From the IMG/VR virus record IMGVR_UViG_2684623059_000003, positions 1 to 41,037 of that record: a stretch of DNA of 41,037 nucleotides. One strand, 5' to 3'. Positions 35,601 through 38,600 of the stretch are shown here, piece by piece (the stretch's first letter is position 1; every line of letters begins with the position of its first letter). The position numbers are program-made. Source of the stretch: a virus (Duplodnaviria; Heunggongvirae; Uroviricota; Caudoviricetes).

Positions 35601-38600
35601 TCTGGCGCGCGTTGCTGGTTAGCCAGAAACACTGACTGATGAGGCTGACGATGGAATTTAAAGATTTACCGTCTGATGTACAGAAAACAGCAGCTCATAC
35701 ATTGCATTCTGTGCTGCGAGAAATCGGGAAAGATATTGCAAGCGAGCCAGCAAAAGATCTGGCCCGGAAAATCAAGACCGCTTTCGTTGAGCTTTATAAT
35801 GTTGGCACTGACTCTGAAACTGTCGAGACCAAGACCGTAAGTTCACCAATATTCTCACTTGAGCCAGGCGTATTAGCAGGTGAAATATGCACCGAGATTT
35901 CCAGCGAACTGCTTCCGGTAATACGAGAAGCAATTTGCCGTCGCGGTTTGGATGGAAGTTACGATCATGACGTCCTGCAAGTTCTCAGGACAATGGTGAC
36001 TTCACTGGGGATTTGATCCCTGCGTCCTCTAACCTTTTGATATAGCGGTCCTCCAAGAAGCGGTAAATTTTGTCGAAATCATCTTTCCCCTCTGATTTAT
36101 TCAGAGGATTACAGGACCCGTAAGTAGCGGCATACATTTCAACCGTTTTATCAAAAATATAAGAGACAAATTCTTCTTTAGTCATATAGATTTCCTTCTT
36201 GGTTATTCGGGATAAGAAGGATACCACCTCGCCTGACGTGGTTAAAAGCAGGCACACAACACGAAAGCGCACGGCGAAGTTCGTCTCACTGTACGGTGTC
36301 GTTAAATTTAATTCGACCGTGCGCTTCCGGTTGTGGCAACCCGCGAAATGGCGCGGCGGTAAGTATGGCGGGGTTATTCCTTCCCCGTTGAGGACACCGG
36401 GTTGTCAGGTTGACCATACGCTTAAGTGACAACCCCGCTGCAACGCCCTCTGTTATCAATTTTCTGGTGACGTTTGGCGGTATCAGTTTTACTCCGTGAC
36501 TGCTCTGCCGCCCTTTTTAAAGTGAATTTTGTGATGCGGTGAATGCGGCTAAGCGCACGCGGAACAGTTAAAACCAAAAACAGTGTTATGGGTGGATTCT
36601 CTGTATCCGGCGTTAATTGTTAACTGGTTAACGTCACCTGGAGGCACCAGGCACCGCATCACAAAATTCATTGTTGAGGACGCGATAATGGAAACGTTAT
36701 TACCAAACGTTAATACGTCTGAAGGTTGTTTTGAAATTGGTGTCAGAATCAGTAACTCTGCATTTACTGAAGATGCCATTAACAAGAGAAAACACGAACG
36801 GGAGTTATTAAATAAAATATGCATTCTTTCAATGCTGGCACGTTTACGCCCGATGCAAAAAGGATGCTGGCAATGAATACAGCAATTGCTCTCACTCTGA
36901 TAGTTTTTCTTAATACGGGCGAGCCTGTTGACCTGGTTATTGACATTTACGGTTCAATGAAAGAATGCACGGCTGCCGCAGCGGAACAGAAAACTCCCGG
37001 TAACTGTTATCCGGTCGATAAAGTTATTCATATGGACAATAACGAAATCCCGGCAGGACTTAAAACAGCACCGTAATTAATATCCGGTTTCATTTTTATA
37101 TGCCAGCAATGGCAGGGATTTGTTCACCCTTAAATCTGTAATGAGGTTAAAACAAAATGAGTAAAGTCTTTATTTGCGCCGCCATTCCGGACGAACAGGC
37201 AACAGCAGAAGGCGCTAAACCTGTGGCCACTGCCATTGAAGCAGGCGACGAACGCCGGGCAAGAGCCAAATTTAGCTGGTTATTTCTGGAACAATACCCG
37301 GAAGCTCAGGACTGTGCTTATAAATTTCTTGTCTGCGAGGATAAACCCGGCATGGCCCGCCCTGCTCTCGATTCCTGGGATTCCGAATATATGCAGGAAA
37401 ACCGCTGGAATGAGGAGTCGGCTTCCTTTGTTCCGGTCGACCCTGAACCGGATACAGAAACTGTTAACTTTAATCAGTTATCTGAAGACAAGCGGGCTGC
37501 TGTCCTTGTCAGATTCGGTACACATGAAAACATCACCGTGGATATGGTCATCAATGCAAGCGGGCTTCTCGGCGATGACGAGATGACGACTTTTGATGGA
37601 CACCTCACTGAAGCAATTATCAGGACTAAAGAAATTAACGCCATGTATCCTGAGCGTCAGACTGAGTACATCAACGACGCCAGATGTGATTTAAAACCAA
37701 CAGCCAAATGGCCCGACGTTCAGGCGTATTTTCTCGAACGTAAAAAACGCATGGAAAAGGAGCGCAAAGAAGGTGGAGCATATAATTCCGTCGTCGATCT
37801 TGCCCGCGCCAGAGTCAACCGGCAAGGCACTGAAAACTCTGCAGGAAAAACTGGCTCCGTAACTGCTGTCATTCGTCGCGCATACAGGCAGACATGGAAA
37901 ACACTGGATGAAGAACTGGCCTACGCTCTCTGGCCTGGTGATGTGGATGCCGGAAACATTGACGGCAGCATCCATCGCTGGGCAAAAAATGAAGTTATCG
38001 ACAACGACCGCGAAGACTGGAAGCGTATCTCGGCATCAATGCGCAAACAGCCTGATGCCCTTCGCTACGACCGCCAGACTATTTTTGGCCTTGTCCGTGA
38101 ACGTCCGATCGACATTCACAAAGACCCTGTGGCACTGAACAAATACATTACTGAATACCTGACGACAAAAGGCGTGTTTGAAGATGAAGAAACGGATCAG
38201 AGTCCTGCTGATGTTCTCCGGTCGTCAGCAACACAAACTGATGCAGTGGAAACAGAAGTATCTGGCACCCAAAAAAATGAAAGCGCACTGGAAGCTGAAC
38301 CATCTGTAGAGCGTGAAGGACCGTTCTACTTCCTCTTTACCGATAAGGACGGCGAAAAATACGGTCGCGCAAACAAACTGTCTGGTCTGAATAAGGCGCT
38401 GGCTGCCGGGGCTACTGAAGTCACCAAAGAAGAATACGTCGCCCGAAAAAATGGCACATACACAGGCTTACCGCAAAATACCAATGCCGCACAAAACTCT
38501 GAACAACCAGAGCCGGTAAAAGTTAACACGGTCGAAACAAATAAAAAAATGGAGACAGAAAATCTGCCTGATGCCGACAAAGTGCTTACTGCATCACGTG

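What the first reader, a model, noticed from the sequence alone, without database searches (positions are those of the whole stretch)
36688..37076. dicB and ydfD translationally coupled by an ATGA overlap
The division inhibitor DicB and the small membrane lysis protein YdfD share the overlap ATGA, so host killing functions are co-expressed and silenced together by DicA. Cryptic-prophage toxic modules of this kind are candidates for abortive-infection or competition functions.
Basis: partly seen in the sequence, partly recalled or inferred. Interest (0 to 1): 0.4.

Follow-up and report, generated by a model that had tools for sequence, protein, structure and literature searches.

The report
Known dicB–ydfD overlapping prophage gene pair
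The four-base ATGA overlap between the cell-division inhibitor gene dicB and the small lysis gene ydfD is really there, but it is the standard, already published arrangement of this prophage gene pair found in most E. coli genomes, so it is ordinary.

Summary
dicB runs 36688-36876 and encodes 62 aa. A ydfD-family gene runs 36873-37076 and encodes 67 aa. They share ATGA at 36873-36876.

This is the reference arrangement. K-12 Qin has the same 4-nt overlap, as do 35 of 35 distinct haplotypes sampled, and the locus occurs in 4750 of 5426 complete E. coli genomes. A 2022 paper already says the two genes share an operon "with partial overlap". Four-base overlaps are routine here: the closest phage has six, and the window has at least four more.

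Substitution patterns and Shine-Dalgarno placement support the ATG of the ATGA as the ydfD start, not the upstream ATG some gene callers use. A DicA-family repressor with matching operators around a promoter upstream of ydfA supports co-silencing. True translational coupling is plausible but untested, and no conserved RNA structure enforces it.

The interpretation needs three corrections:
- DicB blocks YdfD lysis rather than adding to it.
- Deleting ydfD had minimal effect on the phage resistance conferred by the operon.
- This prophage looks complete, not cryptic. It is mEp460-like, probably in Escherichia albertii or a related attaching-effacing strain, and has its own lysis cassette.

This YdfD is only 65% identical to the tested K-12 protein. 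Verdict: already known, low interest.

The parts
36688..36876 (+). dicB, 62-aa cell-division inhibitor (ATG 36688, stop TGA 36874-36876). An in-frame upstream extension from GTG 36583 exists, but the internal ATG is the accepted start.
   Evidence: Pfam PF05358 1.6e-36, 1-62/62. NCBIfam NF049927 130 bits against cut-off 100. 53/62 identical to K-12 DicB. dN/dS 0.22-0.39. GAGGA Shine-Dalgarno at 36676-36680, duplex -5.9 kcal/mol.
36873..36876 (+). ATGA: the ydfD start codon (36873-36875) overlapping the dicB stop codon (36874-36876).
   Evidence: Read directly. Invariant in 35/35 distinct haplotypes. The same 4-nt overlap is annotated in K-12 and other records.
36860..36864 (+). AAGGA Shine-Dalgarno for ydfD, inside the dicB K58-G59 codons, 8 nt upstream of the ATG.
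   Evidence: Duplex with the anti-SD -5.4 kcal/mol at proper spacing. ATG 36864 has none (+0.3). ATG 36819 has GGGAG about 13 nt away. AAGGA or AAAGGA is kept in nearly all junction variants.
36873..37076 (+). ydfD-family gene, 67 aa (DUF1482), the longer allele class. The 63-aa K-12 form differs at the 3' end by a single T indel.
   Evidence: Pfam PF07358 7e-18. PHROG 1092 1-63/63. 41/63 identical to K-12 YdfD. Both conserved Cys present. dN/dS 0.39 in the N half and 0.16 in the C half. Indel shown. The exact allele is named DUF1482 family protein in E. albertii and E. coli records.
36819..36872 (+). Upstream in-frame extension of the ydfD frame, giving the 85-aa form called by some gene finders. 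Judged not to be coding in this frame.
   Evidence: Synonymous:nonsynonymous changes are 4:16 in the ydfD frame, like the off-frame 4:21 and unlike ydfD proper at 47:54 (Fisher p=0.045). The -18 ATG lies in the conserved dicB K-I-C codons, and the -3 ATG (36864) is not conserved. The Pfam and PHROG models start at the short form.
36462..36513 (+). DicF small RNA, with a 3' hairpin plus U-run (to about 36518) that looks like an intrinsic terminator upstream of dicB.
   Evidence: Rfam RF00039 76.7 bits against gathering score 48. Hairpin -15.9 kcal/mol followed by UUUUU. In K-12 the main transcript ends after dicF and a longer one includes dicB-ydfD (PMC10448788).
35382..35410 (+). dicBp-like sigma-70 promoter (TTGACG-17-TAAATT) upstream of ydfA.
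   Evidence: Promoter scan. The -35 region CTTGAC and everything downstream is conserved with K-12, while the operator positions differ.
35356..35411 (+). Two operator-like sites flanking or overlapping the promoter (ACTTGAGTTTTCTCAT and ATGAGAAAACTAAAT). A third copy, ATTGAGTTTTCTCAATG, lies at 34822-34838 between the divergent Cro-like and repressor genes.
   Evidence: Repeat search: D2 is 100% identical over 13 nt at 34823-34835 and 35359-35371; I1 and I2 are 17-nt inverted copies. Function as operators is inferred.
34887..35294 (+). DicA-family repressor, 135 aa from the internal ATG. HTH only, no S24 peptidase domain.
   Evidence: NCBIfam NF007257 'transcriptional repressor DicA' 239 bits against cut-off 101, 1-135/135. 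Pfam gives HTH_3 only. 100% identical to the mEp460_ev081 repressor and 57% to K-12 DicA.
34585..34809 (-). DicC/Cro-like regulator, divergent from the repressor.
   Evidence: tblastn: 100% to the mEp460 protein and 70% to K-12 DicC.
35487..35639 (+). ydfA homologue (DUF1391), first gene of the operon.
   Evidence: Pfam PF07151 4.3e-27. 43/49 identical to K-12 YdfA.
35639..36016 (+). 125-aa ORF of unknown function that replaces ydfB and ydfC of K-12.
   Evidence: PHROG 33007 4.6e-82. No similarity to YdfB or YdfC. The same gene is in E. coli C and mEp460.
37157..39616 (+). Intact 819-aa YdfE-type protein with a C-terminal 3'-5' exonuclease domain, next gene downstream. The intergenic hairpin at 37101-37114 is weak.
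   Evidence: Pfam Rv2179c-like 1.2e-65. YdfE_N and YdfE_C on identical neighbours. Hairpin -6.8 kcal/mol with no U-run, though invariant in 4 loci.
29555..29803 (-). Rem antirepressor homologue. In K-12, Rem relieves DicA repression of this operon.
   Evidence: tblastn 98.8% to mEp460 Rem. Function from PMC10448788.

Best explanation
This is the well-known dicB-ydfD gene pair, sitting distally in the early-left (dicBp, PL-like) operon of a Qin/mEp460-type lambdoid prophage.

In the lysogen, a DicA-family repressor binds palindromic operators around the promoter upstream of ydfA and keeps the whole operon off. When repression is lifted, for example by the Rem antirepressor encoded in the same prophage, transcription proceeds through ydfA and a 125-aa ORF. 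Part of it stops at or is processed around DicF, and the read-through RNA carries dicB and ydfD together.

Ribosomes start dicB at ATG 36688 and terminate at UGA 36874-36876. ydfD is translated from the AUG at 36873, which overlaps that stop, helped by the AAGGA Shine-Dalgarno 8 nt upstream. Most likely some of this is termination-reinitiation and some is direct initiation.

The functional consequence is that YdfD is made only on messages that also make DicB. In K-12, YdfD inhibits IspG and lyses dividing cells, and DicB's block of division masks that lysis. The visible outcome of derepression is therefore filamentation, not lysis.

Shown here: the anatomy, the family identities, the conservation, purifying selection on both genes, and the start-site choice. 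Taken from the literature on K-12: DicA repression, Rem, co-transcription, YdfD-IspG, and DicB masking. Inferred: coupling itself, operator function, and lytic activity of this 65%-identical 67-aa allele.

My sub-confidences: identity of the pair 0.97; ATG 36873 as the start 0.85; a real contribution of termination-reinitiation 0.6.
For: - Anatomy.
- Family matches.
- The K-12 reference has the same order and 4-nt overlap, as do other annotated loci and the functional phage mEp460_ev081.
- ATGA is invariant in 35/35 haplotypes even though synonymous divergence jumps from about 0.08 in dicB to 0.25-0.29 in ydfD, a mosaic boundary.
- Both genes are under purifying selection (dN/dS 0.16-0.39).
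- Start site: SD at 36860-36864; the extension frame is unselected.
- Regulation: DicA-family repressor, three operator copies and a promoter, Rem and DicC homologues.
- Literature: DicA 22-fold repression, ydfABC-dicFB-ydfD transcript, Rem (PMC10448788); 'same operon, with partial overlap', DicB offsets YdfD lysis, IspG target (PMC8835842).
- Prior for coupling: 4 of 5 native E. coli ATGA pairs were coupled by termination-reinitiation (PMC6728339).
- A local hairpin (-15.8 kcal/mol) covers the ydfD AUG in this window.
Against: - None of the papers I read reports a direct measurement of coupling for this pair, and no paper in the library combines YdfD with ribosome profiling.
- ydfD has its own adequately placed SD, so de novo initiation is possible. 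One of five tested E. coli ATGA pairs (bioBF) initiated de novo.
- The junction hairpin is no more stable than shuffled sequence (z -0.17). It is replaced by a different fold in K-12-type sequences, and in the commonest haplotype the AUG is mostly unpaired (P 0.78).
- Conservation of ATGA does not prove coupling, because any indel there would damage one of the two genes.
- This YdfD differs from the tested K-12 protein at 22 of 63 positions and has a 4-residue C-terminal extension. In K-12 even deltaC1 or L63A abolished killing.
- RegulonDB-derived statements list extra promoters before dicF and dicB, although PMC10448788 found no evidence for them.
Confidence: 0.8

Rival explanations
1. The overlap is only compact gene packing. 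ydfD is translated by ribosomes that bind its own Shine-Dalgarno de novo, and dicB and ydfD are co-expressed solely because they share a transcript.
For: - AAGGA lies 8 nt upstream with -5.4 kcal/mol, similar to dicB's own SD at -5.9.
- The AUG is predicted mostly unpaired in the commonest haplotype, and there is no conserved sequestering structure.
- The fold is no better than shuffles.
- The bioBF precedent shows de novo initiation at an ATGA overlap.
- 4-nt overlaps are routine in this phage type.
Against: - 4 of 5 native E. coli ATGA pairs tested were coupled.
- In this window and several haplotypes the SD and AUG are largely paired (P unpaired 0.01-0.4), which would favour dependence on upstream translation.
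Confidence: 0.3
2. ydfD starts at the upstream ATG 36819 and encodes an 85-aa protein that overlaps dicB by 58 nt, so the ATGA is not a start-stop junction.
For: - The frame is open for exactly 19 codons upstream in every haplotype, and the -18 ATG is present in all but one.
- Many automated gene calls record 85- or 81-aa forms.
- A GGGAG lies upstream of 36819.
Against: - Substitutions in the extension are 4 synonymous to 16 nonsynonymous in this frame, like an unselected frame.
- The ATG is explained by the conserved dicB K-I-C codons.
- The GGGAG is about 13 nt from the ATG.
- Pfam and PHROG models begin at the short form.
- Curated K-12 and PGAP annotation uses the short form.
- The 63-aa K-12 protein is fully lytic, and removing its first residue after Met abolishes killing.
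Confidence: 0.07
3. The pair is an abortive-infection or competition module: on phage attack or stress the two toxic proteins are released together to kill the host.
For: - Both proteins are toxic when overexpressed.
- Operon induction protects against lambda-vir.
- ydfD mRNA is reported to rise under stress.
Against: - The protection is by DicB acting on inner-membrane receptor proteins (entry exclusion, not abortive infection), and deleting ydfD had minimal effect.
- DicB prevents rather than adds to YdfD lysis.
- Neither protein matches a PADLOC defence model.
- The module sits in the early-left operon of an apparently complete phage, where it would be expressed during the phage's own lytic growth.
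Confidence: 0.08
4. This 67-aa allele is not a lysis protein. It keeps the DUF1482 fold but has a different or weaker activity than K-12 YdfD.
For: - It is only 65% identical to K-12 YdfD, and the N-terminal IspG-binding half is the most divergent.
- It has a C-terminal KTAP extension, whereas K-12 deltaC1 and L63A lose killing.
- PGAP names this class 'DUF1482 family protein' and only the K-12-like class 'lysis protein YdfD'.
Against: - It is under purifying selection.
- The conserved core EQK-PGNCYPVDKVI and both Cys are retained.
- It has the same genomic partner and junction.
- The 67-aa form is the commoner one and differs from the 63-aa form at the end only by one indel.
Confidence: 0.2

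Closest known systems
dicB (b1575) - ydfD (b1576) of the Qin cryptic prophage, E. coli K-12 MG1655
   Same: Same gene order: dicA-type repressor, ydfA, DicF, dicB, ydfD, ydfE-type gene. Same 4-nt ATGA overlap (1649609-1649797 / 1649794-1649985). Same conserved promoter region and ydfD-downstream spacer.
   Different: DicB is 85%, YdfD 65% and the repressor 57% identical, with different operator sequences. YdfD is 67 rather than 63 aa through one T indel. ydfB and ydfC are replaced by a 125-aa ORF. The downstream exonuclease gene is intact here but is an IS2-disrupted pseudogene in K-12. The prophage here looks complete.
Escherichia phage mEp460_ev081 (LR597641.1), a functional temperate phage
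   Same: 97.3% identical over repressor-to-ydfD. Repressor and Cro 100%, Rem 98.8%, same 125-aa ORF, same 4-nt overlap, similar lambda-like structural genes.
   Different: Its YdfD is the 63-aa K-12-like allele, only 70% identical to the window's, so there is a mosaic breakpoint at the junction. The window additionally carries NleG effector genes.
Overlapping ATGA gene pairs coupled by termination-reinitiation (Huber et al. 2019, PMC6728339)
   Same: 4-nt stop/start overlap with a Shine-Dalgarno in the 3' end of the upstream gene.
   Different: Dependence of ydfD translation on dicB translation has not been measured. No conserved local structure blocks de novo initiation.
kil of Rac and lambda (FtsZ inhibitor in the early-left operon)
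   Same: A small division inhibitor in the same position of a lambdoid early-left operon. In one E. coli locus kil replaces the 3' part of dicB and ydfD.
   Different: Unrelated sequence, and no ydfD partner there.
Single-gene lysis proteins that inhibit a biosynthetic enzyme (e.g. phiX174 E on MraY), the comparison drawn in PMC8835842
   Same: A small protein reported to lyse growing or dividing cells by blocking a precursor-supplying enzyme, IspG.
   Different: YdfD is not this phage's lysis device. The window has its own endolysin, spanin and holin-like genes under Q. YdfD is an early-operon gene whose lysis is masked by its upstream neighbour.
YebW (b1837), chromosomal DUF1482 paralogue
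   Same: Same Pfam family and same size. Shares the hydrophobic N-terminus and the two Cys.
   Different: 31% identity. It stands alone 104 nt after yebV, with no overlap, no dicB and no prophage context.

Membership tests
DicB (Pfam PF05358 / NCBIfam NF049927) | Full-length match above the curated cut-offs, about 62 aa | tested here: met
   PF05358 124.3 bits (cut-off 27), 1-62/62. NF049927 130 bits (cut-off 100). 85% identical to K-12 DicB.
DicB (Pfam PF05358 / NCBIfam NF049927) | Located downstream of DicF RNA in a ydfA-led operon | tested here: met
   DicF at 36462-36513. ydfA at 35487-35639.
DicB (Pfam PF05358 / NCBIfam NF049927) | Binds MinC and blocks FtsZ-ring formation | not testable with these tools
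   Known for K-12 DicB (PMC8835842). Inferred here from 85% identity.
YdfD / DUF1482 (Pfam PF07358) | Match above the Pfam gathering score | tested here: met
   64.7 bits against cut-off 25. PHROG 1092 1-63/63. No NCBIfam model matches either this protein or K-12 YdfD.
YdfD / DUF1482 (Pfam PF07358) | Two conserved cysteines and the conserved core | tested here: met
   C32, C45 and the core Q39-K40, P42-G43-N44-C45-Y46-P47-V48, K50 are invariant in 18- and 24-sequence alignments.
K-12-type 'lysis protein YdfD' | Intact N- and C-termini as in the 63-aa protein (in K-12, deltaN1, deltaC1 and L63A lose killing) | tested here: not met
   The N-terminus MN is kept, but the C-terminus carries four extra residues (KTAP) and 22/63 positions differ. 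PGAP names this class only 'DUF1482 family protein'.
K-12-type 'lysis protein YdfD' | Division-dependent lysis and IspG binding | not testable with these tools
   Published for K-12 only.
DicA-type prophage repressor (NCBIfam NF007257) | Full-length match above cut-off; short HTH protein lacking the S24 self-cleavage domain | tested here: met
   239.4 bits against cut-off 101, 1-135/135. Pfam shows HTH families only.
DicA-type prophage repressor (NCBIfam NF007257) | Operators overlapping the operon promoter and the divergent repressor/cro promoters | tested here: inconclusive
   Three copies of a TGAG-N4-CTCA-type palindrome lie at 34822-34838, 35356-35372 and 35393-35411, around TTGACG-17-TAAATT. 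Binding was not tested.
Translationally coupled ATGA pairs (termination-reinitiation) | 4-nt stop/start overlap on one strand | tested here: met
   ATGA at 36873-36876. 35/35 haplotypes.
Translationally coupled ATGA pairs (termination-reinitiation) | Shine-Dalgarno within the 3' end of the upstream gene | tested here: met
   AAGGA at 36860-36864, -5.4 kcal/mol, 8-nt spacer.
Translationally coupled ATGA pairs (termination-reinitiation) | Downstream translation depends on upstream translation | not testable with these tools
   Needs a premature-stop reporter experiment. The structure-based proxy is inconclusive.
Known anti-phage defence / abortive-infection systems (PADLOC-DB) | Match to a defence-system protein model | tested here: not met
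   No match for DicB, YdfD, YdfA, the 125-aa ORF or Rem at E<=0.01.
Type II toxin-antitoxin pair (considered only as an analogy) | The upstream antidote binds and neutralises the downstream toxin and autoregulates the operon | not tested
   DicB masks YdfD lysis indirectly, by stopping division (SulA does the same). No evidence of direct binding or autoregulation. Not filed as a member.

The most novel reading that the evidence does not exclude
The antidote-first ATGA junction could be a selected safety or timer device. Because every ydfD-translating ribosome would have just made DicB, YdfD could accumulate harmlessly in non-dividing filaments. It would kill only when DicB activity falls and division resumes. 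That would give the phage or lysogen a delayed, division-gated lysis or post-derepression killing switch, separate from the holin-endolysin cassette. The strict retention of ATGA across a recombination breakpoint, where ydfD alleles are swapped, would then reflect selection on coupling rather than mere compactness.
Probability: 0.1. Interest if true: 0.45.

Novelty: already known. Interest (0 to 1): 0.1.

Why it matters
It matters little as a discovery. The gene pair, its overlap, its shared operon, its repression by DicA and the DicB-YdfD antagonism are all published, and the overlap is in the K-12 reference annotation.

Three useful residues remain:
- A clean argument that the short (ATGA) start is the real one. 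Many automated gene calls in public databases use an 85-aa form.
- The observation that the junction is also a mosaic breakpoint between a highly conserved DicF-dicB block and diverged ydfD alleles.
- A reminder that true translational coupling of this pair, and the lytic activity of the common 67-aa allele, appear untested in the papers read here.

Tried and rejected
1. Stop-codon test for the 85-aa form: uninformative. The upstream frame is open for exactly 19 codons in every haplotype, so I used substitution patterns and SD placement instead.
2. Conserved RNA structure enforcing coupling: a hairpin exists in this window, but it is not conserved in K-12-type sequences, shows no excess stability, and leaves the AUG open in the commonest haplotype. 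Rejected as evidence.
3. Species-level scan for ydfD relatives: only 5 loci, all Escherichia/Shigella plus one probably misbinned Veillonella MAG contig. No deep phylogenetic test was possible, and the 80 viral loci collapse to a few junction haplotypes.
4. Structure: the AF2 model had one confident model of five (pLDDT 79 against about 54). Foldseek against PDB found nothing with E<1, and PDB sequence searches for DicB and YdfD found nothing. Not used beyond noting that no transmembrane helix was predicted.
5. The original ydfD paper (Masuda et al. 2016, PMC5975272) is not held. Its results are cited only as reported by PMC8835842, PMC10448788 and PMC11430063.
6. No paper in the library combines YdfD with ribosome profiling.
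7. Terminator after ydfD: only a weak 5-bp hairpin without a U-run. Not accepted as a terminator, although the spacer is highly conserved.
8. PADLOC: no defence-model match.
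Full report
**Observation.** Reading the sequence and the ORF table shows an ATG at 36688 that opens a 62-codon frame ending with TGA at 36874-36876. An ATG at 36873-36875 opens a 67-codon frame ending with TAA at 37074-37076. The first ORF is DicB: Pfam PF05358 at 1.6e-36, full length, and NCBIfam NF049927 at 130 bits against a cut-off of 100. The second belongs to the YdfD/YebW family: DUF1482, 7e-18, and PHROG 1092, full length.

**How ordinary it is.** The 901-bp region matches 4750 of 5426 complete E. coli genomes. The K-12 MG1655 reference annotates dicB at 1649609-1649797 and ydfD at 1649794-1649985, the same 4-nt overlap. E. coli 52F4, E. coli C, AST217, EC16 and phage mEp460_ev081 all show the same overlap. 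Among 80 viral contigs plus the annotated loci, every locus with enough flank has the pair. All 35 distinct dicB-ydfD haplotypes have ATGA, and six further places that encode the identical YdfD allele do too.

The only exceptions are decayed or recombined loci. In one, dicB is truncated and followed by Rac-type kil with no ydfD. In another, an IS5 insertion removed dicB and clipped ydfD.

Four-base overlaps are the commonest overlap class. About 15% of co-directional pairs overlap (PMC6728339). mEp460_ev081 has six annotated 4-nt overlaps. This window has further ATGA overlaps between long ORFs at 27772, 20699, 15742 and 10759. [quoted passage not shown]

**Context.** The window is a nearly complete lambdoid prophage. 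It has lambda-like head and tail genes about 96% identical to phi458 and mEp460, and an endolysin, Rz spanin, holin-like gene and Q antiterminator. It also has replication genes, a CII-like gene, a Cro/DicC-like gene, a repressor, the dicBF-type operon, an intact 819-aa YdfE-type exonuclease and an integrase.

The repressor-to-ydfD stretch is 97.3% identical to mEp460_ev081, which PMC10448788 describes as a functional temperate phage. The exact DicB and YdfD alleles carry adjacent accessions in an Escherichia albertii record and also occur in E. coli. No complete E. coli genome matches the 13-kb right end above about 91%. Three NleG effector genes lie at the left end. The host is therefore probably E. 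albertii or a related attaching-effacing Escherichia, and the element is not evidently cryptic.

**Which start does ydfD use?** The ydfD frame is open for 19 codons upstream, with ATGs at 36819 and 36864, and many automated calls record 85- or 81-aa proteins. The extension is open in all haplotypes, so stop codons cannot decide. Five lines of evidence favour 36873:
- The 36819 ATG lies inside the conserved dicB K-I-C codons, and the 36864 ATG is not conserved (M/I/T).
- In the 54-nt extension, changes are 4 synonymous to 16 nonsynonymous in the ydfD frame. That is indistinguishable from an off-frame (4:21) and different from ydfD proper (47:54, Fisher p=0.045).
- AAGGA at 36860-36864 pairs with the anti-SD at -5.4 kcal/mol with an 8-nt spacer. 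ATG 36864 has no SD, and the GGGAG before 36819 is about 13 nt away.
- The Pfam and PHROG models start at the short form.
- The 63-aa K-12 protein is lytic, and losing its first residue after Met abolishes killing (PMC8835842).

**Is ydfD a real gene?** Yes. dN/dS is 0.39 in the N-terminal half and 0.16 in the C-terminal half, against 0.22-0.39 for dicB. Synonymous divergence jumps from about 0.08 in dicB to 0.25-0.29 in ydfD. The window is 95% identical to mEp460 in DicB but only 70% in YdfD. The ATGA therefore lies on a mosaic boundary between a homogenised DicF-dicB block and older ydfD alleles. The 63-aa and 67-aa allele classes differ at the end by a single T indel.

**Regulation.** From the internal ATG at 34887, the repressor is 135 aa and matches NCBIfam 'transcriptional repressor DicA' end to end (239 bits against cut-off 101). 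It has no S24 domain. It is 57% identical to K-12 DicA and 100% identical to the mEp460 repressor.

A 13-nt palindromic core, TTGAGTTTTCTCA, occurs between the divergent Cro-like and repressor genes (34823-34835) and again at 35359-35371. An inverted copy lies at 35393-35409. Together the downstream sites bracket a TTGACG-17-TAAATT promoter upstream of ydfA. K-12 has the same promoter frame but different sequences at the operator positions, as expected for a different immunity specificity. A Rem antirepressor homologue is present at 29555-29803.

In K-12, deleting dicA raises dicBp 22-fold, Rem relieves repression, and a ydfABC-dicFB-ydfD transcript is inferred (PMC10448788). DicF (36462-36513) ends in a -15.9 kcal/mol hairpin followed by UUUUU. 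dicB-ydfD are therefore expressed from read-through or processed RNA, as described for K-12.

In other genomes the same dicB-ydfD-exonuclease module sits under LexA-like S24 repressors or other immunity regions. 'Silenced by DicA' is thus a property of this immunity type, not of the module.

**Coupling.** The ATGA with an upstream SD is the classical termination-reinitiation layout, and 4 of 5 native E. coli ATGA pairs tested were coupled, while one initiated de novo (PMC6728339). In this window a hairpin of -15.8 kcal/mol pairs the ydfD AUG and part of its SD with an upstream UGCUGGCA repeat. However, the region folds no better than shuffles (z -0.17). The hairpin is replaced by another fold in K-12-type sequences, and the commonest haplotype leaves the AUG mostly unpaired. 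No paper in the library combines YdfD with ribosome profiling. Coupling is therefore likely (about 0.6) but unproven.

**Function.** From the literature:
- DicB inhibits division via MinC and excludes phages that use ManYZ.
- YdfD lyses dividing cells, binds IspG, and is rescued by HMBPP.
- DicB or SulA co-expression prevents YdfD lysis.
- Rem-driven derepression causes filamentation through DicF and DicB.
- Deleting ydfD barely changes the phage resistance conferred by the operon.

The two products are therefore antagonistic rather than jointly lethal, and the abortive-infection suggestion has little support. Neither protein matches a PADLOC model. This phage has its own late lysis cassette, so YdfD is an early-operon accessory protein and not the lysis device.

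Whether this 67-aa allele is lytic is inferred only. It is 65% identical to K-12 YdfD and has a KTAP tail, whereas K-12 deltaC1 and L63A lose killing. The 'membrane protein' label rests on a short hydrophobic N-terminus. The one confident AF2 model places it in a beta-hairpin of a small beta-beta-alpha-beta fold, and no structural relatives were found.

**Verdict.** Novelty: already known. Interest: low.

Noticed in passing
window 1-627 (+), 1911-2594 (-), 2616-3347 (-): Three NleG-family type III secretion effector genes (Pfam PF06416, E 1e-41 to 1e-45) lie beyond the tail-fibre gene at 3591-4910. This is effector cargo typical of lambdoid prophages of attaching-effacing Escherichia.
   Followed up: partly
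window 30023-30325 (-): A hok/sok-type type I toxin-antitoxin locus: Rfam sok at 122 bits (30170-30325), plus a Mok/Hok-like ORF at 30023-30175 that is 100% identical to 'MokW' of mEp460_ev081.
   Followed up: partly
window 26503-26656 (-): Two phage-borne tRNA genes, tRNA-Gly(TCC) and tRNA-Thr(TGT), lie between the Q antiterminator and the lysis genes.
   Followed up: no
window 36511-36720 (+): A sub-threshold Rfam match to Salmonella sRNA STnc100 (39 bits against gathering score 47) covers the DicF-dicB spacer and the dicB 5' end. This suggests a conserved structured leader shared with Salmonella prophages.
   Followed up: no
window 36873-37076 compared with L003 and L084: A mosaic breakpoint sits exactly at the dicB/ydfD junction. 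The DicF-dicB block is 95-100% identical to mEp460 and K-12, while the first half of ydfD drops to about 55% DNA identity. Synonymous divergence is about three times higher in ydfD than in dicB.
   Followed up: yes
window 37059-37076: The 63-aa (K-12 'lysis protein YdfD') and 67-aa ('DUF1482 family protein') allele classes differ at the 3' end by a single T indel that moves the stop codon. In K-12, changing the last residue abolishes killing, so the two classes may differ in activity.
   Followed up: partly
window 35639-36016 (+) and 35985-36272 (-): ydfB and ydfC of K-12 are replaced by a 125-aa ORF (PHROG 33007), with a convergent 66-95-aa ORF (PHROG 34441) overlapping its end. Both are of unknown function, and both are also present in E. 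coli C and mEp460.
   Followed up: partly
L096-L101 (loci with the identical YdfD allele): The same ydfA...dicB-ydfD-exonuclease module is attached to at least three different immunity regions: a 139-aa repressor, a LexA-like S24 CI with P22-type Cro, and a 123-aa protein next to a PaaA2/ParE toxin-antitoxin pair. One genome carries two copies.
   Followed up: no
L088 (JAGZPX010000007.1): A contig binned as a Veillonella parvula MAG carries a typical Escherichia dicB-ydfD locus. This is almost certainly a binning error.
   Followed up: no
public protein databases: Many automated gene calls record YdfD homologues as 85- or 81-aa proteins starting at the upstream in-frame ATG. The evidence here says these N-terminal extensions are mis-annotations.
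   Followed up: yes
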